A stretch of 64,000 nucleotides of DNA from Candidatus Doudnabacteria bacterium RIFCSPHIGHO2_12_FULL_48_16 (GTDB lineage Bacteria > Patescibacteriota > Doudnabacteria > UBA920 > O2-02-FULL-48-8): positions 331,146-395,145 of the forward strand of contig MFEY01000007.1 of assembly GCA_001780035.1 (NCBI GenBank). Reading direction: 5' to 3'. The notes beneath the pieces are model-generated. The model searched no databases and had not been told where the DNA came from. It saw only the letters and a program-made list of their open reading frames with translations. A program made the position numbers and the translations under genes. Position 1 is the stretch's first letter. Every line of letters begins with the position of its first letter. Positions 122-47,687 of this stretch are shown piece by piece.

Positions 122-541
122 ATGGCCAGTTACAAAAACCTCGACCTAAAACAGCTCCACCGCCTGGCGGCCGCCCTGGCTCTAACGCTTAAGGGCCGTG
201 GCGCCACCATCGGCCTAACCGGAACCTTGGGCGCGGGCAAAACAACCTTTGTCCAAGGCTTTGCCAAAGCTCTGGGGATCAAAAAAATTTCCAGCCCGAC
301 ATTTGTGATTCGGCACGATCACCGGGCCAGACGATCCAATCTTTATCATCTGGATTTTTACCGGCTGACCAAAGCCAGCCAGCTTAAAAATTTGGGACTC
401 ATGGAACTGTTGGGCCGGAACAATTTGATTCTGATTGAGTGGGTGGAAAAATTTTCGAAAATTGAAAAGCTCTGCGACATTGTTGTTACGTTTAAGATTA
501 AACCCGGAAACGTCCGTGACATTACCATCAAAGCTAATTAA
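122..541 (+). CDS. tsaE: tRNA threonylcarbamoyladenosine biosynthesis protein TsaE (YjeE-type P-loop ATPase)
   Basis: 139-aa ORF with the Walker A motif GLTGTLGAGKTTFVQGFAKALG, which is typical of TsaE/YjeE. Confidence 0.85.
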   Translation: MASYKNLDLKQLHRLAAALALTLKGRGATIGLTGTLGAGKTTFVQGFAKALGIKKISSPTFVIRHDHRARRSNLYHLDFYRLTKASQLKNLGLMELLGRNNLILIEWVEKFSKIEKLCDIVVTFKIKPGNVRDITIKAN

Positions 542-578: not shown

Positions 579-1664
579 ATGTTTGCCCATGCCGCAACTT
601 TTGCCTTCAACAATCAAACCTGGGAGATTGCGGTCCAGGTCGACAACTACACGCCACAGCTTTTGACCCGCAATGACGGGGATCTGGCAATTTTGGCGCG
701 GGCCGTTTTGTTTGGGCAGACCAATTTGCCAACAGCCGGTCTATTTGCCCCCACCACCATTAAGGAAGTCATGAAACTCCCTGCCCAAATCAACCAGCAG
801 TCGGCCGGGGCCGAGCTGACGATTGAAAATAAACGGGCCACGCACTTTATCCCCGGACAAAACGGACAAGCGCTCGATCTCTATGCTCTGCGCCAGCAAC
901 TGCTCGCCGACGGGTCCCAGCCGCTGCCGGTCCTGATTTCGGAGCCAACTGTTAAGCTTGCCAGCACCAATATCCTTGGAATTAATGAACTCGTGGCGAT
1001 CGGCGAATCAAACTTCAGCGGCTCACCCAGAAACCGTATCCACAATATCGCCGTGGGCGCAGACAAATTTGACGGTTTGATTGTGGCGCCGGGGCAAGAA
1101 TTCTCATTCAATAAATATCTGGGCGACGTCGACGCGGAACACGGGTTCCTGCCGGAGCTGGTGATTAAACCGGGAGGGGTGACGCCGGAATTCGGCGGCG
1201 GGCTGTGCCAGGTCTCTTCCACCACCTTCCGCGCGGCCATGAATGCCGGCCTGCCGATCACCGCTAGGCGCAATCATTCATTCGCCGTCCAATACTATGC
1301 GCCCCAAGGCACCGATGCCACAATTTACCCCGGCTCGGCGGACTTAAAATTCATCAATGACCTGCCCACTAGCCTGCTGATCCACACCAAAATTGTAGGC
1401 CGCAAACTTTATTTTGAATTTTATGGTACCAAGGACAGCCGGACCATAACCTTTGACGGCCCCACACAATATGACAAAAAACCTGACGGCTCCATGAAAG
1501 CAACCTGGACCAAACATGTCACCAAAAACGGCCAGCTCGTCACCCAAGTCTTCAAAAGCACCTATCTGCCGCCTGCGCTGTTCCACCGTGACGCAGTCGA
1601 ACAACCCTCCACCCCCAACCCGGAAACGCCGACCACCCCTATCACCCCACCATTAACCCAATAA
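579..1664 (+). CDS. VanW-family protein
   Basis: Contains the conserved VanW core GQEFSFNKYLGDVDAEHGFLPELVIKPGGVTPEFGGGLCQVSSTTFRAAMNAGLPI. The start was moved to the in-frame ATG at 579 so that it does not overlap tsaE. Confidence 0.7.
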   Translation: MFAHAATFAFNNQTWEIAVQVDNYTPQLLTRNDGDLAILARAVLFGQTNLPTAGLFAPTTIKEVMKLPAQINQQSAGAELTIENKRATHFIPGQNGQALDLYALRQQLLADGSQPLPVLISEPTVKLASTNILGINELVAIGESNFSGSPRNRIHNIAVGADKFDGLIVAPGQEFSFNKYLGDVDAEHGFLPELVIKPGGVTPEFGGGLCQVSSTTFRAAMNAGLPITARRNHSFAVQYYAPQGTDATIYPGSADLKFINDLPTSLLIHTKIVGRKLYFEFYGTKDSRTITFDGPTQYDKKPDGSMKATWTKHVTKNGQLVTQVFKSTYLPPALFHRDAVEQPSTPNPETPTTPITPPLTQ

Positions 1665-1666
1665 CC

Positions 1667-2908
1667 ATGTTTACTTTTCACCCCGATCAAAAAATACTCA
1701 ACCGCTACGCGCAAGTTCTCGTCCGGTTTGCCCTCGGTGGCGGGAAGGGCATCAAACGCGGAGAAGTCGTCCGCGTCAGCGCCAACGAATCAGCCCGGCC
1801 GCTATTTTTGGCTGTGTGCAACGCTGTCGTCGACGCGGGTGGCCATGTCATCTCCCACTACGCGCCGGATGATGAACAAGGCGACAAGCGCCGCAATGAA
1901 AGCTATACCCGATATTTTTATGAACAAGCGGAACAGCATCAATTGGATTTTTTTCCGGACAAATATCTTAAAGGTTTGATGAACCAGATGGATCACTCAA
2001 TCTTCCTGCTCTCAACCAATGATCCCCATGCCCTCCGGGGAGTGGACCCGAAAAAAATTATGCGTCGTGGCGTCGCCCTCAAACCGTTTATGGATTGGCG
2101 AAATGAAAAAGAGTGGGCCGGGAAATTTACTTGGACCATTGCCTTGTATGGCACGGCCGCCATGGCCGCCGAAGCCGGGCTGTCAGAAAAAGCATATTGG
2201 AATCAAATCATCAAGGCGTGCTTCCTGGATCACCCCAATCCGGTCGCGAAATGGAAACAAATTTACCGCGAATTAGAAAAATATCGAACCAAGCTCAACA
2301 AGCTCGCACCCCAGACCGAATCGCTCCACGCGGTGGGGCCAGATATGGATTTATGGGTCAAGCTGGGCGAGAAACGCCAGTGGCTCGGCGGCAGCGGGCG
2401 CAATATTCCCAGTTTTGAGCTCTTTACTTCGCCGGATTGGCGCGGCACCGAGGGCTGGATTCGCTTCAACCAACCCCTCTATCGCTATAGCAATAAAATT
2501 ACCGGCATCCAACTGTGGTTTAAAAACGGCCGGGTGGTGAAAAGCTCCGCCAAGTCGAATGAAAAATTGTTAAAACAAATGATCGCGACTCCGGGCGCAG
2601 ACCGGATTGGTGAATACTCTTTGACTGACCGGCGGTTTTCCCGCATCACCAAATTTATGGCGGAAACCCTCTTCGATGAAAATATGGGCGGTCCTCAAGG
2701 CAACACCCACCTCGCTCTCGGCATGTCCTATCGGGACACCTATGCCGGCGACGCCGCGAAGCTGACCAAAAAACAAGCTCTGGCGCTGGGATTTAACGAC
2801 TCCTCGGTGCATACGGATATCATCTCCACCACCCCTCGTGTTGTCACCGCGCACCTCAAAAACGGCTCCCGCAAAATTATTTACGCCAATGGCCAATTTG
2901 TCTTGTAA
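1667..2908 (+). CDS. Aminopeptidase, M29 (AmpS/PepS) family
   Basis: 413-aa ORF whose N-terminus MFTFHPDQKILNRYAQVLVRFALGGGKGIKRGEVVRVSA matches thermophilic-metalloprotease (M29) aminopeptidases. Confidence 0.65.
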   Translation: MFTFHPDQKILNRYAQVLVRFALGGGKGIKRGEVVRVSANESARPLFLAVCNAVVDAGGHVISHYAPDDEQGDKRRNESYTRYFYEQAEQHQLDFFPDKYLKGLMNQMDHSIFLLSTNDPHALRGVDPKKIMRRGVALKPFMDWRNEKEWAGKFTWTIALYGTAAMAAEAGLSEKAYWNQIIKACFLDHPNPVAKWKQIYRELEKYRTKLNKLAPQTESLHAVGPDMDLWVKLGEKRQWLGGSGRNIPSFELFTSPDWRGTEGWIRFNQPLYRYSNKITGIQLWFKNGRVVKSSAKSNEKLLKQMIATPGADRIGEYSLTDRRFSRITKFMAETLFDENMGGPQGNTHLALGMSYRDTYAGDAAKLTKKQALALGFNDSSVHTDIISTTPRVVTAHLKNGSRKIIYANGQFVL

Positions 2909-19826: not shown

Positions 19827-19917
19827 AACGCGACGCGGACAACCAGATGGACCGGGTGTGCAGTGACAGTGCACATCCCGGTCTTTTTTTATTCCGACCT
19901 CGACAAAGTCGAGCGTC

Positions 19918-19950
19918 GGAACTCCGACCGAAGCGTCGGAGTTTTCTTAT
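19918..19950 (+). terminator. Intrinsic terminator closing the GC-rich island (AACTCCGAC-cgaagc-GTCGGAGTT + TTTCTT)
   Basis: 9-bp stem with a T-rich tail on the plus strand only. It overlaps the ruvC stop. Confidence 0.45.
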
Positions 19951-31322: not shown

Positions 31323-32006
31323 TTATTCAATGCTACTTTCGATGGCGACCAGATCGTTGTAAACGGATTTGTTATTGTTAACCCAATGATCACCCGGCGG
31401 TTGCTTGTAGAGCCCATTCATGCGTTCAAAACTCATTTGGGAATATTTGACCGTAGACCGCAGTGGATATTTGTTTAAGAACCGATTCATGGCGATGACG
31501 CCTTCGCCCAAGTTGTCGCCCATGTCCCAGAGGTCTGAGCCCCCCACCCCCCAGCAATTGGCTTTGTCCAAAGGGTAGCGCCGACAGAGCGTGCTTTCGG
31601 CATTGGCCAGAGCGGTGATTTTTTTCCAGTTGCGCAGGCTGACCAAAGTCGAAGCATAAGGCGCGAGTGGCGAGCGCTGGGAGGCCAGGTAAGCGCCGAC
31701 TGCCGTAGCGAGCTTCTGCTGCCGGATCGCCTGCTGCACCGCCTGCCGCTGATAATACTCGTCGGTTAAGTCTTGGTTTAGCTGGGAGAGGTAATCTTCA
31801 TAGTCGGAAATCCCGGATTCAAAAACCAGGGCCGGACCCAATTCGGGCGCTAGCAACGGCGGCTGGGCATAAGTGACATGCGGCACCAGCGTTGCCAAAA
31901 GCCCCAGCAAAAAGAGGGTAAGTGAAAACTTATGGCGCAGGGCCAGTGTGTTAAAGCTGGCTTTCAGCGGATAATTTTTTATTTTACGAACAATGTCTAT
32001 GTCCAT
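31323..32006 (-). CDS. Hypothetical secreted protein
   Basis: 227 aa with an N-terminal hydrophobic signal-like segment (FSLTLFLLGLLATLVPHVTYAQPP). I recognise no domain. Confidence 0.45.
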   Translation of the reverse strand: MDIDIVRKIKNYPLKASFNTLALRHKFSLTLFLLGLLATLVPHVTYAQPPLLAPELGPALVFESGISDYEDYLSQLNQDLTDEYYQRQAVQQAIRQQKLATAVGAYLASQRSPLAPYASTLVSLRNWKKITALANAESTLCRRYPLDKANCWGVGGSDLWDMGDNLGEGVIAMNRFLNKYPLRSTVKYSQMSFERMNGLYKQPPGDHWVNNNKSVYNDLVAIESSIE

Positions 32007-32131
32007 TTAGGATTTGTGGGGGTAATCTCAGCAGAACCGTATCAAATTTAAACTGTCGGGTCAATGCTAACATGTGGATTGTCTGTGCAGAATAAGATAT
32101 AATATTTGGAGTTTGCGGTTCAATATGGGAT

Positions 32132-32161
32132 GGCGTCATGGCCGAGCGGTTAGGCAGAGGT
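32132..32161 (+). other. 5' half of a second tRNA-Cys-like gene (acceptor GGCGTCA + D-arm), separated from its 3' half
   Basis: GGCGTCATGGCCGAGCGGTTAGGCAGAGGT: the D-arm and anticodon-stem 5' strand are identical to tRNA-Cys at 32213. The acceptor strand pairs perfectly with TGACGCC at 32334. Confidence 0.4.
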
Positions 32162-32212
32162 TAAGTCTGCCCCGACGCTTCGGCCGGGGTTCCGACCCAA
32201 AATTTTGGACTT

Positions 32213-32286
32213 GGTCTGGTGGCCGAGCGGTTAGGCAGAGGTCTGCAAAACCTCGTACACCGGTTCAACTCCGGTCCAGACCTCCA
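32213..32286 (+). tRNA. tRNA-Cys (GCA), CCA-encoded
   Basis: Manual cloverleaf: acceptor GGTCTGG/CCAGACC, anticodon arm GAGGT-CTGCAAA-ACCTC, T-arm ACCGG-TTCAACT-CCGGT, discriminator U73 and CCA. Confidence 0.8.
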
Positions 32287-32307
32287 AAATTTTGGCGTCG
32301 GAACAAA

Positions 32308-32344
32308 ACCTCGTACACCGGTTCAACTCCGGTTGACGCCTCCA
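32308..32344 (+). other. 3' half of the second tRNA-Cys-like gene (anticodon-stem 3' strand, T-arm, acceptor TGACGCC, U73, CCA)
   Basis: ACCTCGTACACCGGTTCAACTCCGGTTGACGCCTCCA is identical to tRNA-Cys positions 39-65, followed by an acceptor strand complementary to 32132-32138. Confidence 0.4.
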
Positions 32345-32416
32345 GAATAATAAAATGTAGGTAAACGTAGGAGGATAGAGATTGTCTTTGTCTTTACCAT
32401 CAGATATACTTTTGTT

Positions 32417-32899
32417 ATGAGTAAAGACAGAAAAAAGAAGTGGACAGGAGACCAGTTAAAGAAAGCGGCACAGGAATCCTTTAGTATACGACAGGTAATC
32501 TTTAAGCTGGGTTTAATTCCTGCTGGAGGCAATTATGTTCAAATTCAAAATTATTTAAGGTCGCTTCATATTGATACATCTCATTTTAAAGGGAAGAGTT
32601 GGAATAAAGGGCTAACGGGATTAGTGCGAGCGAGTATGCCCATAGAGCAGATTCTTGTTAAAGAAAGTTATTATCAGAGTTATAAACTAAAAAAGCGTTT
32701 GTTTTCCCTCGGATTGAAGGCCAGGAAATGCGAAGAATGCGGTTGGGCAAAAACTACACCAGAAGGTCGGCTGCCACTAGAGCTAGATCATATTAATGGT
32801 AACCGTAACGACAATAGGTTAGAGAACCTAAGAGTTCTTTGTCCCAACTGCCATAGCTTGCAACCAACTCATAGAGCTAGGAACAAGAAGAAAAAATAG
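32417..32899 (+). CDS. HNH endonuclease (free-standing, homing-endonuclease-like)
   Basis: 160 aa. C-terminal zinc-ribbon HNH motif CEECGW...ELDHINGNRNDNRLENLRVLCPNCHS. Located between the tRNA-Cys locus and tRNA-Leu. Confidence 0.75.
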   Translation: MSKDRKKKWTGDQLKKAAQESFSIRQVIFKLGLIPAGGNYVQIQNYLRSLHIDTSHFKGKSWNKGLTGLVRASMPIEQILVKESYYQSYKLKKRLFSLGLKARKCEECGWAKTTPEGRLPLELDHINGNRNDNRLENLRVLCPNCHSLQPTHRARNKKKK

Positions 32900-32907
32900 T
32901 TTTATTT

Positions 32908-32993
32908 GCCCGGGTGGTGGAATGGTATACACGCAGCACTTAAAATGCTGTGGGCGTAAGCTCTTGAGAGTTCGAATCTCTCCCCGGGCACCA
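32908..32993 (+). tRNA. tRNA-Leu (TAA), type II, CCA-encoded
   Basis: Acceptor GCCCGGG/CCCGGGC, anticodon loop CTTAAAA, long variable arm and T-loop TTCGAAT. The anticodon loop is intact, so there is no intron. Confidence 0.85.
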
Positions 32994-33071
32994 GAAAGGA
33001 AAAGTCAAAGAGTTTTGGGGGAAGAAATTTTTTTAATCACAAAGTCGAAAAAATAATTTACGAATAACCAT

Positions 33072-33695
33072 ATGAATCAAAAAGGATTTGCAAATATAGT
33101 TTTGATAGTAGTAATTATTGCCATTGTCGCTGTTGGTGGATATTTTGTTTTTTCCAAAAAATCAAATCAATTTAGTAAAAGTCCGATACCTACCTCGACT
33201 CAAAATTTCGGTCCAATCGCAGATTGGGAAACATACACCTTGCCGACTACGGACGAATTTTTAAGTCCAGCCCCAGCACTTGGTTTTAGTTTTCGCTACC
33301 CTAGTATTTTTCGGGCTCCAATACTTAGTTTTAATCGGGTTACGCCAGGGGATTCGCCGCGTCGTCAGATTAATATTTCTACGGGTAGCGGGTCATTTCT
33401 AGTAGATATTACCGTTAACGCTCGTAGTTACGGTGGAACAATAGTTCCTGAGTTAAAAAATACTTCGTCAGGTACTGTTGTATCCGGAGATAATCGTACA
33501 CTTACTTACCAGACTGGCCGATTCACTCCTCTAGGAGGTCCTGTGAGGATGTGGTATGTTGGCACTAGAGTTAATGAGGACGCTTACTTCATGATTAACG
33601 GAGATGTCTATTCCATTAGATTCTCGGCCAATGACGATAGTGATCAAACACAACTTGTCCGCCAGATCCTCTCTACAATCAAATTTACGAATTAG
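33072..33695 (+). CDS. Hypothetical membrane-anchored protein (pilin-like N-terminal TM)
   Basis: 207 aa. MNQKGFANIVLIVVIIAIVAVGGYF transmembrane anchor followed by a Ser/Thr-rich extracellular domain. Confidence 0.45.
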   Translation: MNQKGFANIVLIVVIIAIVAVGGYFVFSKKSNQFSKSPIPTSTQNFGPIADWETYTLPTTDEFLSPAPALGFSFRYPSIFRAPILSFNRVTPGDSPRRQINISTGSGSFLVDITVNARSYGGTIVPELKNTSSGTVVSGDNRTLTYQTGRFTPLGGPVRMWYVGTRVNEDAYFMINGDVYSIRFSANDDSDQTQLVRQILSTIKFTN

Positions 33696-47560: not shown

Positions 47561-47612
47561 CGGGGTGTCGTATACCGGTAGTATGCACGCCACGCCCCCC
47601 ACACCAGTTTTA
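47561..47612 (+). pseudogene. Truncated, divergent copy of the 5' part of tRNA-Pro
   Basis: CGGGGTGTCGTATACCGGTAGTATGCACGC aligns to CGGGATGTAGTATACCGGTAGTACACGCGC of tRNA-Pro(CGG). There is no T-arm or 3' acceptor. Confidence 0.35.
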
Positions 47613-47613
47613 T

Positions 47614-47687
47614 CGGGATGTAGTATACCGGTAGTACACGCGCTTCGGGTGCGTGAAGACCGGGTTCGATTCCCGGCATCCCGACCA
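47614..47687 (+). tRNA. tRNA-Pro (CGG), CCA-encoded
   Basis: Acceptor CGGGATG/CATCCCG, anticodon arm CGCGC-TTCGGGT-GCGTG and T-arm CCGGG-TTCGATT-CCCGG. Confidence 0.8.

What the first reader, a model, noticed from the sequence alone, without database searches (positions are those of the whole stretch)
32132..32344. Nested / split tRNA-Cys locus: a complete tRNA-Cys(GCA) sits between the two halves of a second tRNA-Cys-like gene
What the sequence shows:
- A canonical tRNA-Cys(GCA) lies at 32213-32286.
- 32132-32161 (GGCGTCA-TG-GCCGAGCGGTTAGGC-A-GAGGT) reproduces the 5' half of that tRNA with a different acceptor strand.
- 32308-32344 (ACCTC-GTAC-ACCGGTTCAACTCCGGT-TGACGCC-T-CCA) reproduces its 3' half, with the complementary acceptor strand, U73 and CCA.
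- GGCGTCA pairs perfectly with TGACGCC, so the two halves would together form a second tRNA-Cys body. They are separated by about 146 nt that contain the intact tRNA.

The intervening flanks can also pair: CCGACGC at 32172 with GCGTCGG at 32295, and GTTCCGAC at 32189 with GTCGGAAC at 32297. The inner tRNA is bracketed by a 12-nt palindromic direct repeat CCAAAATTTTGG at 32197 and 32284, and the second copy overlaps the tRNA CCA end.

This looks like either a split or intron-containing (permuted) tRNA whose intron has captured a tRNA, or a tRNA gene disrupted by insertion of a tRNA-sized mobile unit with a 12-bp target duplication. A free-standing HNH endonuclease gene lies 70 nt downstream. 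I am not aware of an equivalent arrangement described in bacteria.
Basis: seen in the sequence. Interest (0 to 1): 0.7.

Follow-up and report, generated by a model that had tools for sequence, protein, structure and literature searches.

The report
tRNA-Cys gene nested within tRNA-Cys
In this groundwater bacterium (Candidatus Doudnabacteria) the original cysteine-tRNA gene has been cut in two, in the middle of its anticodon, by a 134-base insert that carries its own complete cysteine-tRNA gene; the same insert sits at the same spot in three separate branches of the group, so it behaves like a small self-replacing mobile cassette, not like a split or spliced tRNA.

Summary
Window 32132-32344 holds the two halves of a tRNA-Cys(GCA) gene. 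They are separated by 5 extra bases and a 134-nt insert (32170-32303) that contains a full tRNA-Cys(GCA) with a different acceptor stem. Joining the halves gives, 74/74, the uninterrupted tRNA-Cys of the closest sampled relative. So the outer gene is the resident one and the inner gene is the incomer.

The same nested allele occurs in two other Doudnabacteria, and each has closer relatives with an intact gene. The 5' junction differs between carriers. One carrier has lost 21 nt of the outer 5' half. No intron family or bulge-helix-bulge motif is found. The outer gene is therefore most likely dead and the inner one is the working tRNA, transcribed from the host promoter.

The insert's non-tRNA flanks are a hairpin and a 19-bp leader-trailer helix. 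They are 86-100% conserved, with compensatory changes, and are better conserved than the neighbouring tRNA-Leu. The 12-nt palindromes are the arms of that helix, not a target duplication. The HNH gene is an independent presence/absence insertion.

Mobility is inferred from the distribution. The mechanism is unknown.

The parts
32098..32103 (+). TATAAT, the likely -10 box of the resident tRNA-Cys promoter. The insert has no promoter-like box of its own upstream of the inner tRNA.
   Evidence: Read from the sequence. A TATAAT sits 13-28 nt upstream of the outer or intact gene in L115, L116, L120 and L027. The consensus scan did not flag it because the -35 is weak. This is an inference.
32132..32161 (+). 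Outer (resident, type A) tRNA-Cys 5' part: acceptor strand GGCGTCA, D arm, and anticodon-stem 5' strand GAGGT.
   Evidence: Identical to nt 1-30 of the intact tRNA-Cys genes of L008, L012, L116, L120 and L121.
32162..32166 (+). Five extra bases (TAAGT) that are absent from intact genes. The matching position holds different extra bases in L115 (TGAGTGAGT-like) and L027 (TGGTTTC-like).
   Evidence: Alignment A2 and comparison with the intact genes.
32167..32169 (+). CTG: positions 32-34 of the outer anticodon loop, the last bases of the 5' piece.
32170..32303 (+). The 134-nt insert: hairpin, leader strand, inner tRNA-Cys and trailer strand.
   Evidence: Absent from intact alleles. Present at 86-100% identity per segment in L115 and L027.
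32170..32189 (+). 5' hairpin CCCCG-AC-GC-UUCG-GC-CGGGG.
   Evidence: Pairs are kept in all three carriers. The closing pair is C-G in the window and U-A in L115 and L027, and one pair changes from G-C to G-U (helix 5).
32190..32208 (+). Leader strand of the long helix (TTCCGAC + CCAAAATTTTGG). It is followed by the unpaired ACTT (32209-32212).
   Evidence: RNAfold and RNAalifold. All 19 pairs are 100% paired in the three carriers, with one compensatory change, U-A to C-G (helix 6).
32213..32286 (+). Inner (type B) tRNA-Cys(GCA): acceptor stem GGTCTGG/CCAGACC, U73, encoded CCA. This is the presumed working tRNA-Cys.
   Evidence: ARAGORN. Rfam RF00005 60.8 bits against a gathering score of 29. 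Compensatory changes in the anticodon and T stems between carriers (helices 9 and 10).
32284..32303 (+). Trailer strand of the long helix (CCAAAATTTTGG C GTCGGAA). Its first three bases are the CCA end of the inner tRNA.
32294..32300 (+). GGCGTCG in the trailer. It is an alternative 5' partner for the outer 3' acceptor strand TGACGCC.
   Evidence: The isolated trailer + outer 3' half folds as a 7-bp acceptor-like stem stacked on the T arm. This is the MFE structure in all three carriers, z = -2.1 to -2.4.
32304..32344 (+). Outer tRNA-Cys 3' part: CAAA of the anticodon loop, ACCTC, GTAC, T arm, TGACGCC, U73, CCA.
   Evidence: Identical to nt 35-74 of the L116 intact gene, including the clade-specific ACCTC GTAC. 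95% identical between carriers, with the last 28 nt invariant.
32417..32899 (+). Neighbour, not part of the cassette: a free-standing HNH endonuclease gene between tRNA-Cys and tRNA-Leu(UAA).
   Evidence: Pfam HNH_3 and HNH. It shows presence/absence polymorphism among relatives, independent of nesting.
32908..32993 (+). Neighbour: tRNA-Leu(UAA). It follows tRNA-Cys in all Doudnabacteria loci examined that extend far enough to show it.
19892..19941 (-). Second copy of the cassette's 'frame' elsewhere in the window. It has the same hairpin (CUCCGACGCUUCGGUCGGAG) followed by the same UUCCGAC...GUCGGAA helix. Here the helix encloses only a 16-nt hairpin, and the element lies directly after the ruvC stop codon.
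   Evidence: blastn 23/25. The degenerate 25-mer pattern gives 2 matches against 0 in shuffles. Also.

Best explanation
Shown: the resident tRNA-Cys(GCA) gene of this Candidatus Doudnabacteria species (type A, acceptor stem GGCGUCA/UGACGCC) is interrupted between anticodon bases G34 and C35. The interruption is a 134-nt promoter-less cassette with four parts:
- a 20-nt hairpin;
- a 19-bp leader-trailer helix;
- inside that helix, a complete tRNA-Cys(GCA) gene with another acceptor stem (type B, GGUCUGG/CCAGACC);
- U73 and an encoded CCA on that inner gene.

Inferred function: the whole unit is transcribed from the resident tRNA promoter. The inner tRNA is released by ordinary tRNA processing: RNase P at 32213, and probably RNase III in the long helix. 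It serves as the cell's tRNA-Cys. The outer gene no longer makes a tRNA. Its 5' half is just leader. Its 3' half can fold with the trailer's GGCGUCG into a tRNA-like acceptor/T-arm minihelix 7 nt after the inner CCA. I propose, as an inference only, that this minihelix acts as an RNase P-type cutting signal that defines the inner tRNA's 3' side.

Inferred history: the cassette allele arose once, because all carriers share the same 3' junction and related 5' junctions. It then spread between Doudnabacteria lineages into their own type-A genes. This resembles homing or gene conversion with short conversion tracts, or a site-specific insertion. It disrupts an essential single-copy gene while supplying its own replacement. 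With time the outer halves decay (L027) and may disappear, leaving a type-B gene (L074).
For: 1. Resident versus incomer. The joined outer halves equal the intact gene of L116, 74/74. Type-A intact genes occupy the orthologous locus in L008, L012, L116, L120, L121 and L123.

2. The inner gene is a good tRNA, and its stems co-vary between carriers.

3. The outer gene is not maintained as a tRNA.
- Extra bases at the 5' junction differ between carriers.
- L115's 'spliced' product is not called a tRNA-Cys by ARAGORN.
- L027 lacks 21 nt of the 5' half. The deletion lies between GTTA(A)GGC repeats, and the promoter and leader match those of its relative L120.

4. Patchy distribution. In S1 and p227 trees the three carriers fall in three clades, each with a nearer un-nested relative: window with L116 and L118 (S1 89-90%); L027 with L120 (84%); L115 far from both (p227 36%).

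5. The outer 3' halves of the window and L115 carry their own clade's polymorphisms (ACCTC GTAC versus ACCTT TTAC).

6. The cassette is more conserved than its surroundings: leader 86-91%, trailer 94-100%, against 73-87% for the adjacent tRNA-Leu, about 50% for the outside flanks, and about 70% nt for neighbouring genes.

7. Every substitution in the hairpin and helix keeps pairing. There are two compensatory pairs and one G-C to G-U change, which is compatible only with this strand as RNA.

8. The minihelix is the MFE fold of the trailer + 3' half in all three carriers.

9. L074 has a lone type-B gene with a recognisably related trailer (AAATTTAGCGTCGGGA) but no complementary leader.
Against: - Only three carriers are known, so covariation rests on four pairs (7/500 shuffles reach the observed value).
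- No transcript data exist, so every processing step is inferred.
- No mobility machinery is identified. The insert encodes no protein, and the adjacent HNH gene is neither necessary (absent in L115) nor specific (it also sits next to intact genes).
- The trees are single-gene neighbour-joining trees without support values, and L115 is placed from 124 residues only.
- High conservation of the outer halves could mean that they still have a role I have not recognised.
- In the full-length transcript the trailer is predicted to pair with the leader, not to form the minihelix. The minihelix would therefore need prior cleavage or strand exchange.
- In the window the inner body is 100% identical to the outer body. 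This needs an extra assumption: local gene conversion.
Confidence: 0.6

Rival explanations
1. Vertical relic without mobility. A single ancient rearrangement created the nesting in a common ancestor, for example a tandem A-B-A tRNA-Cys array followed by internal deletions, or one illegitimate insertion. Un-nested lineages later regained an intact gene, or the single-gene trees mislead.
For: - All carriers share the same 3' junction (GTCGGAR|CAAAACC) and related 5' junctions, which points to one founding event.
- The trailer begins with GGCGTC, like the 5' end of a type-A gene.
- Partial tRNA copies next to tRNA genes are common in these genomes (L121, L123, window 47561). So local duplication and deletion is clearly active.
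Against: - Intact type-A genes occur in the nearest relatives of two carriers, the window and L027. Precise restoration of a 74-nt gene from a nested allele, several times over, is unlikely without recombination with an intact allele, which is itself horizontal exchange.
- The outer halves carry clade-specific polymorphisms.
- The cassette is 86-100% identical between genomes whose p227 proteins are 36-53% identical.
Confidence: 0.15
2. The outer gene is a working interrupted tRNA. The inner tRNA and its flanks act as an intervening sequence that RNase P, RNase Z or RNase III removes. The two outer pieces are then ligated, or they function as a non-covalent two-piece tRNA.
For: - In the window and L115 both outer halves are intact and can form the acceptor stem, D arm and T arm.
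- The long helix would hold the pieces together.
- The outer halves are highly conserved.
- Patescibacteria do carry introns at anticodon position 35/36 of other tRNAs (PMC13011429).
Against: - The break lies inside the anticodon (G34|C35), so an unligated pair cannot decode.
- The extra 5-9 nt before CUG would remain. They differ between carriers and abolish the anticodon stem in L115.
- L027 lacks the 5' acceptor and D-arm strand altogether.
- There is no group I intron signal in Rfam even at E<=10.
- The insert ends in A or C, not G, and the 5' piece ends in G or C, not U.
- There is no bulge-helix-bulge motif.
- The cell already gets a complete tRNA-Cys from the same transcript.
Confidence: 0.05
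3. A REP- or MITE-like structured repeat carrying a tRNA. The hairpin + TTCCGAC/GTCGGAA 'frame' is a dispersed intergenic element of these genomes, moved in trans, for example by an IS200/IS605- or RAYT-type single-strand transposase. One copy captured a type-B tRNA-Cys in its second loop and landed in the anticodon loop of the resident gene.
For: - A second copy of the same frame, with a 16-nt hairpin instead of the tRNA, lies after ruvC at 19892-19941.
- The frame consists of strand-specific hairpins, as such elements do.
- There is no target duplication, as in IS200/IS605 insertions.
Against: - Only two copies were seen in 64 kb, and none in about 100 kb of other Doudnabacteria loci apart from the nested ones.
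- No transposase was identified.
- The bases 5' of the two copies share no target motif.
- The frame could equally be a shared RNA-processing or stability signal.
Confidence: 0.15
4. Scar of an integrase-type element. A phage or island integrated into the anticodon-loop att site of tRNA-Cys, carrying tRNA sequence to repair it, and was later almost entirely deleted.
For: tRNA anticodon loops are classical attachment sites (established knowledge). Short direct repeats of tRNA ends flanking 110-130-nt inserts are seen at L121 and L123.
Against: - Integration would give A5'-B3' ... B5'-A3' hybrids, or a duplicated core at both junctions. Here a whole B gene lies between the A halves, and the anticodon stem-loop core is not duplicated at the junctions.
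- No integrase is present in the insert or among the neighbouring genes listed with Pfam hits.
- Three lineages share the identical small structure, and its non-tRNA flanks show structural covariation.
Confidence: 0.04

Closest known systems
Group I introns in the anticodon loop of Patescibacteria tRNA genes (position 35/36 of tRNA-Asn and tRNA-Asp; Nakagawa et al. 2026, PMC13011429)
   Same: Same phylum. Same kind of target: the anticodon loop of a tRNA gene, one base away or at the same position. It is promoter-less, is transcribed with the host gene, and has a patchy distribution.
   Different: - There is no ribozyme: no Rfam Intron_gpI signal.
- It is only 134 nt long, of which 74 are a tRNA.
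- The splice-site nucleotides are wrong for a group I intron.
- The host gene is not restored at the RNA level. Function is rescued by a second gene copy carried in the insert.
Integrative elements that insert into tRNA genes and carry a tRNA fragment that repairs the gene
   Same: A tRNA gene is the target, and the incoming DNA supplies what the insertion destroys.
   Different: - It carries a whole tRNA gene, not a 3' fragment.
- It has no integrase.
- It has no duplicated att core.
- It is a few hundred times smaller than such elements.
Free-standing homing endonucleases in tRNA gene clusters (phage T4 SegB, PMC2330249)
   Same: An endonuclease gene (HNH) sits between two tRNA genes and shows presence/absence polymorphism. 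Allele replacement occurs in the adjacent tRNA region, with short conversion tracts.
   Different: - The nested cassette occurs without the HNH gene (L115), and the HNH gene occurs next to intact genes.
- The window and L027 HNH proteins are no closer to each other than to those of other relatives.
- No cleavage data exist.
Plant mitochondrial t-elements and other tRNA-like processing signals (Forner et al. 2007, PMC1920247)
   Same: An acceptor-stem/T-arm mimic without a functional anticodon arm lies next to another RNA. RNase P or RNase Z could cut it to define that RNA's end. Here the mimic is the outer 3' half paired with the trailer's GGCGUCG.
   Different: - It is bacterial.
- It derives from a disrupted resident tRNA gene.
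- Cleavage is not shown.
- In the full transcript a competing helix is predicted.
Archaeal split, permuted and intron-containing tRNAs (Nanoarchaeum, Caldivirga, Cyanidioschyzon; own knowledge)
   Same: tRNA halves are separated at or near the anticodon loop and flanked by complementary sequences.
   Different: - There is no bulge-helix-bulge motif.
- No splicing endonuclease is known in this phylum.
- One carrier lacks the 5' half.
- The junctions are not conserved.
- A complete tRNA of the same identity lies between the halves.
rRNA leader-trailer processing stalks and intervening sequences cut by RNase III (own knowledge)
   Same: A stable RNA is embedded in a long perfect helix formed by its own leader and trailer.
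   Different: The embedded RNA is a tRNA, and the stalk emerges from the anticodon loop of a second, disabled tRNA gene. RNase III cleavage is not tested.

Membership tests
Functional bacterial tRNA (inner gene 32213-32286) | Cloverleaf scoring above the Rfam tRNA gathering threshold, with anticodon GCA, U73 and a 3' CCA | tested here: met
   Rfam RF00005 60.8 bits against a gathering score of 29. ARAGORN calls tRNA-Cys(gca).
Functional bacterial tRNA (inner gene 32213-32286) | Stems maintained by compensatory substitutions between species | tested here: met
   One compensatory pair in the anticodon stem and one in the T stem. All inner-tRNA cells are paired. Only three sequences were available.
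Functional tRNA (outer gene, after removal of the insert) | Both halves present, and a regular anticodon stem-loop after excision, in all carriers | tested here: not met
   - The window keeps 5 extra nt. ARAGORN calls it only as a tRNA with a 5-nt 'intron'.
- The L115 product is tRNA-??? with no GCA anticodon.
- L027 lacks 21 nt of the 5' half.
Group I intron in a tRNA anticodon loop | Match to the group I intron covariance model / catalytic core P3-P9 | tested here: not met
   cmscan of 31900-33100 at E<=10 lists no intron family. Only 60 nt of the insert are not tRNA.
Group I intron in a tRNA anticodon loop | 5' exon ending in U (U-G pair in P1) and intron ending in G | tested here: not met
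   The 5' piece ends in ...CUG (or CUGC). The insert ends in ...GGAA (or GGAAC).
Archaeal-type tRNA intron / split tRNA | Bulge-helix-bulge motif at the exon-insert junctions | tested here: not met
   MFE and consensus folds show a multi-nucleotide asymmetric internal loop and a 19-bp helix. They do not show two 3-nt bulges around a 4-bp helix.
Archaeal-type tRNA intron / split tRNA | Splicing endonuclease and RNA ligase encoded by the organism | not testable with these tools
   Only a 64-kb window and 5-12-kb loci were available. No whole-genome gene list could be obtained.
Integrase-mediated insertion at a tRNA att site | Direct repeat of the att core at both junctions, and a recombinase gene in the element | tested here: not met
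   The anticodon stem-loop core is not duplicated at the junctions. The insert has no ORF. No integrase Pfam family appears among the genes listed around the locus.
Homing-type mobile insertion (intron-like population behaviour) | Presence/absence at exactly the same site of a conserved gene in related genomes, discordant with phylogeny | tested here: met
   There are three carriers, and six relatives with an intact type-A gene at the same locus. The carriers fall in three clades of the S1 and p227 NJ trees. The trees have no support values.
Homing-type mobile insertion (intron-like population behaviour) | A site-specific endonuclease that cuts the empty site | tested here: inconclusive
   An HNH gene lies 72 nt downstream in the window and in L027 (where it is frameshifted). 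It is absent from carrier L115 and present beside intact genes in L008 and L012. Cleavage specificity cannot be tested here.
REP/MITE-like dispersed structured repeat | Multiple dispersed copies of the same structured unit in one genome | tested here: inconclusive
   The window has two copies of the hairpin + TTCCGAC/GTCGGAA frame (32170-32303 and 19892-19941). Whole genomes could not be scanned.
tRNA-like processing signal (t-element-like minihelix) | Acceptor-like stem coaxial with a T arm, followed by NCCA | tested here: met
   The trailer + outer 3' half folds as a 7-bp stem directly abutting the 5-bp T stem, followed by U-CCA. This holds in all three carriers.
tRNA-like processing signal (t-element-like minihelix) | Cleavage by RNase P or RNase Z at the mimic | not testable with these tools
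   This needs transcript-end mapping or an in vitro assay.

The most novel reading that the evidence does not exclude
This is a previously undescribed type of selfish element: a protein-less, promoter-less cassette of about 134 nt. It invades the anticodon of an essential single-copy tRNA gene and avoids killing the host by carrying a complete replacement tRNA of the same identity with a different acceptor stem, rather than by splicing. It borrows the host promoter and ordinary tRNA and helix processing, and it spreads between lineages by homing-like conversion. Successive invasion and decay would explain three observations: Doudnabacteria with about 90% identical S1 proteins carry three different tRNA-Cys alleles at one locus; relics of tRNA halves lie beside several tRNA genes; and a type-B-only state exists (L074).
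Probability: 0.35. Interest if true: 0.85.

Novelty: new variant of a known kind. Interest (0 to 1): 0.66.

Why it matters
Insertions into bacterial tRNA genes are known in two forms. Self-splicing introns repair the RNA. Integrative elements repair the DNA with a tRNA fragment. Here the disrupted gene is not repaired at all: the insert brings a whole second gene.

If the horizontal spread is confirmed, this would be a third strategy for living inside an essential gene, and the smallest one. It would also give a concrete route for tRNA gene replacement and acceptor-stem turnover in the reduced genomes of Patescibacteria.

There is a practical consequence too. tRNA finders report only the inner gene, so such loci are invisible in annotation. 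Half-tRNA relics next to tRNA genes may mark past replacement events.

If it proves to be a purely vertical scar, it is still a clear, datable example of tRNA gene death and replacement in place.

Tried and rejected
- ARAGORN intron modes on 32051-32420 report only the inner gene.
- Rfam at gathering and at E<=10 gives only tRNA hits and chance-level matches.
- I checked whether the palindrome CCAAAATTTTGG marks a repeat family. The other exact copies (52774, 58083) lie in unrelated contexts: one terminator-like, one coding. Rejected.
- Assembly artefact: rejected by seven identical independent assemblies.
- HNH as driver: homologues are extremely common in Patescibacteria (7004 hits). The gene sits between tRNA-Cys and tRNA-Leu both with and without nesting. 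There is no support for a specific link.
- Viral origin: six scans of the viral contig collection were run, with the type-B acceptor pattern, the trailer, the leader, the outer 3' end, the junction and the outer 5' half. They gave no cassette. The hits are unrelated type-B tRNA-Cys genes, and those are chance matches.
- The metagenome scan with the trailer pattern gave a single locus (L115). The genome scan was anchored on the type-B acceptor stem, so nested loci with other inner tRNAs would have been missed. The window's own species did not appear among its 92 hits, for reasons I could not determine.
- Integrase-type integration and the bulge-helix-bulge intron were considered and rejected on junction anatomy (see the membership tests).
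Full report
**What is there.**

Reading 32132-32344 gives this order:
- GGCGTCA-TG-GCCGAGCGGTTAGGC-A-GAGGT, the acceptor strand, D arm and anticodon-stem strand of a tRNA;
- five extra bases, TAAGT;
- CTG;
- a hairpin, CCCCGACGCTTCGGCCGGGG;
- TTCCGAC-CCAAAATTTTGG-ACTT;
- a complete tRNA-Cys(GCA) at 32213-32286 with acceptor stem GGTCTGG/CCAGACC, U73 and CCA;
- AAATTTTGG-C-GTCGGAA;
- CAAA-ACCTC-GTAC-ACCGG-TTCAACT-CCGGT-TGACGCC-T-CCA.

ARAGORN and Rfam call only the inner gene. The two outer pieces are exact copies of the inner body, 23 and 30 nt. Their acceptor strands pair perfectly with each other. The whole unit folds at -108 kcal/mol, z = -7.35. In that fold the leader and trailer of the inner tRNA form a long helix that rises from the outer anticodon stem.

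**It is real and it is bacterial.**

The neighbouring genes are gyrA, an MBL-fold hydrolase gene, the ribosomal protein S1 gene and a sigma factor gene. The proteins are named Candidatus Doudnabacteria (Patescibacteria) from Rifle groundwater. Seven assemblies from different samples are identical over the 410-nt intergenic region.

**Which gene is the resident.**

I reached orthologous loci in other Doudnabacteria through homologues of the HNH protein and of the upstream 227-aa protein (p227). These loci have one uninterrupted tRNA-Cys followed by tRNA-Leu(UAA). In L008, L012, L116, L120, L121 and L123 that gene carries the outer acceptor stem GGCGTCA/TGACGCC.

Joining the window's outer pieces, without TAAGT and without 32170-32303, reproduces the gene of L116 at 74/74. 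L116 is the closest relative sampled (S1 89%, p227 73%). So the outer gene (type A) is the ancestral resident, and the 134-nt segment with the type-B tRNA is an insertion.

The palindromes CCAAAATTTTGG are absent from intact genes. They are therefore part of the insert, not a target duplication.

**The same allele elsewhere.**

I scanned one genome per species for the type-B acceptor stem and scanned metagenome contigs for the trailer. These gave two more carriers.

- L115 has both outer halves, the hairpin, the helix, a diverged inner tRNA, and then tRNA-Leu after 11 nt. It has no HNH gene.
- L027 is syntenic with the window. It has lost 21 nt of the outer 5' half, between two GTTA(A)GGC repeats. 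Its promoter and leader match those of its intact-gene relative L120.
- L074 has a lone type-B gene with a related trailer (AAATTTAGCGTCGGGA), no complementary leader and no outer halves. It is a plausible end state of the replacement.

**Is the outer gene still a tRNA?**

Probably not, for four reasons.
- The break lies between G34 and C35, inside the anticodon.
- The bases between GGCAGAG and (G/T)TCTG differ in every carrier (GTTAA, TGAGTGAGT, TGGTTTC). They would remain after any excision. They leave the window with a 12-nt loop and leave L115 without an anticodon stem. ARAGORN on in-silico 'spliced' products gives tRNA-??? for L115.
- L027 has no 5' acceptor strand.
- No intron family matches even at E<=10. 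The junction nucleotides do not fit a group I intron, and there is no bulge-helix-bulge motif.

Patescibacteria do have group I introns at 35/36 of tRNA-Asn and tRNA-Asp (PMC13011429). That paper reports nothing for tRNA-Cys and nothing nested.

**Is the insert under selection?**

Identities between carriers:

| Segment | Identity |
|---|---|
| 43-nt leader | 86-91% |
| 17-nt trailer | 94-100% |
| Inner tRNA | 86-91% |
| Outer 3' part | 95% |
| Adjacent tRNA-Leu(UAA) | 73-87% |
| 60 nt outside the unit | about 50% |

Neighbouring genes are about 70% identical at the nucleotide level.

On a structure written from the window sequence, 98% of cells pair. Four pairs change on both sides: the hairpin closing pair, the outermost helix pair, one inner anticodon-stem pair and one inner T-stem pair. 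Seven of 500 shuffles reach this, and slid controls give 32-58% pairing. One G-C to G-U change fits only the + strand as RNA. With three sequences this is suggestive, not conclusive.

**Distribution.**

In neighbour-joining trees of S1 and p227:
- the window groups with L116 (intact type A) and L118 (a third tRNA-Cys type, GGCCACG);
- L027 groups with L120 (intact type A);
- L115 is distant from both (p227 36%) and nearest to the L008/L121 group (intact type A).

The outer 3' halves of the window and L115 carry the polymorphisms of their own clades (ACCTC GTAC versus ACCTT TTAC). The three share one 3' junction and related 5' junctions.

The simplest reading is a single origin of the allele, followed by transfer into the type-A genes of other lineages with very short conversion tracts. 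That is intron-like homing behaviour. The trees lack support values and L115 is placed from 124 residues, so vertical descent with repeated restoration is not excluded (rival, 0.15).

**How it probably works (inferred).**

- A TATAAT box lies 13-28 nt upstream of the outer or intact gene in every locus, and none lies upstream of the inner gene. The cassette therefore uses the host promoter, and the outer 5' half is leader.
- RNase P would cut at 32213.
- The 19-bp perfect leader-trailer helix, which also sequesters the CCA, resembles an RNase III stalk.
- Once freed from the leader, the trailer and outer 3' half fold into a 7-bp acceptor-like stem (GGCGUCG/UGACGCC) stacked on the T arm and followed by U-CCA. 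This is the MFE in all three carriers. The structure is a tRNA-like minihelix 7 nt after the inner CCA, comparable to plant mitochondrial t-elements (PMC1920247).
- This could explain why the last 28 nt of the outer 3' half are invariant even in L027. None of these cleavages is shown.

**A related element.**

The hairpin + TTCCGAC...GTCGGAA frame occurs a second time in the window, at 19892-19941 on the minus strand, directly after ruvC. There it encloses a 16-nt hairpin instead of a tRNA. Either the frame is a shared RNA-processing or stability signal, or it is a REP/MITE-like repeat that has captured a tRNA (rival, 0.15).

**The HNH gene.**

It is a member of a very large Patescibacteria family and has a promoter-like site of its own. 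It lies between tRNA-Cys and tRNA-Leu in the window, L008, L012, L015, L017 and L027, where it is frameshifted. It is absent in L074, L115-L118, L120 and L123, where the two tRNAs are 4-117 nt apart. It behaves as an independent free-standing homing endonuclease gene, like T4 SegB in a tRNA cluster (PMC2330249). It may stimulate recombination here, but it is not tied to the nesting.

**Verdict.**

- The 'split/intron tRNA' reading is not supported.
- The 'insertion of a tRNA-sized unit' reading is supported and extended: it is a conserved, structured, promoter-less cassette that replaces the gene it destroys.
- I found no description of such an arrangement.
- I rate it a new variant of known insertion strategies in tRNA genes. 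There is a substantial chance (0.35) that it is a new kind of mobile element.

Noticed in passing
window 32417-32899; loci L008, L012, L015, L017, L027 versus L074, L115-L118, L120, L123: The 160-aa HNH endonuclease gene sits exactly in the short spacer between tRNA-Cys and tRNA-Leu(UAA) in some Doudnabacteria. It is absent in others, where the spacer is 4-22 nt (117 nt in L117). In L027 it is frameshifted. The family has about 7000 homologues, at 52-76% identity among the 119 best listed, from many Patescibacteria lineages. It looks like a free-standing homing endonuclease that targets the tRNA-Cys/tRNA-Leu junction.
   Followed up: partly
window 19892-19941 (minus strand), directly after the ruvC stop codon at 19947: A second copy of the cassette's hairpin + TTCCGAC/GTCGGAA helix, here enclosing a 16-nt hairpin and followed by a third strong hairpin. 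The 116 nt fold at -56 kcal/mol, z = -6.3. It may be a REP-like repeat or a shared RNA-processing signal.
   Followed up: partly
window 47561-47583, upstream of tRNA-Pro(CGG) at 47614-47687: A 23-nt copy (91%) of the 5' end of tRNA-Pro lies 53 nt upstream of the gene. Its acceptor strand differs slightly (CGGGGTG versus CGGGATG). It looks like another relic of a tRNA 5' half beside a working tRNA gene.
   Followed up: no
L121 about 166-290 (minus strand): Upstream of an intact type-A tRNA-Cys lies a 15-nt copy of its 5' end (GGCGTCATGGCCGAG). It is followed by an insert of about 110 nt, rich in hairpins, that includes a near-inverted copy of the same tRNA 5' region (CCGCTCGGTCATAC).
   Followed up: no
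L123 about 2244-2400 (plus strand): The last ~20 nt of tRNA-Leu(UAA) (GATTCCCTCCCCAGGCACCA) are repeated about 130 nt downstream of the complete gene, with a structured insert between the two copies. This is the pattern of a small insertion that regenerates the tRNA end it displaces.
   Followed up: no
window versus L116 and L118 (S1 89-90% identical): Three closely related species carry three different tRNA-Cys alleles at one locus: nested B-in-A, intact type A, and a GGCCACG-type gene. The tRNA-Cys/tRNA-Leu block is also inverted relative to the p227 gene in L116 and L118 (as in L012, L074 and L123). The breakpoint lies just after a conserved motif, GGTCAAT...ATGTGGATTG. The locus is a recombination hot spot.
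   Followed up: partly
L117 about 1430-1546 (minus strand): The 117-nt spacer between the GGCCACG-type tRNA-Cys and tRNA-Leu contains GGTTAGGCAGCTGCGACG. This resembles the D-arm region of a type-A tRNA-Cys plus the leader motif CTGCGACG seen upstream of type-A genes in L008 and L123. It may be a relic of an earlier replacement.
   Followed up: no
window 32213-32286 versus 32139-32161 and 32304-32333: In the window species alone, the inner tRNA body is 100% identical to the resident type-A body, and only the acceptor stem differs. In L115 and L027 the inner and outer bodies differ at several positions. This suggests local gene conversion between the nested copies in this lineage.
   Followed up: partly
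window 32719-32772 (minus strand), inside the HNH ORF: A weak Rfam match to COG2908 RNA (20.1 bits against a gathering score of 58.7, E = 0.022). It is most likely chance.
   Followed up: no
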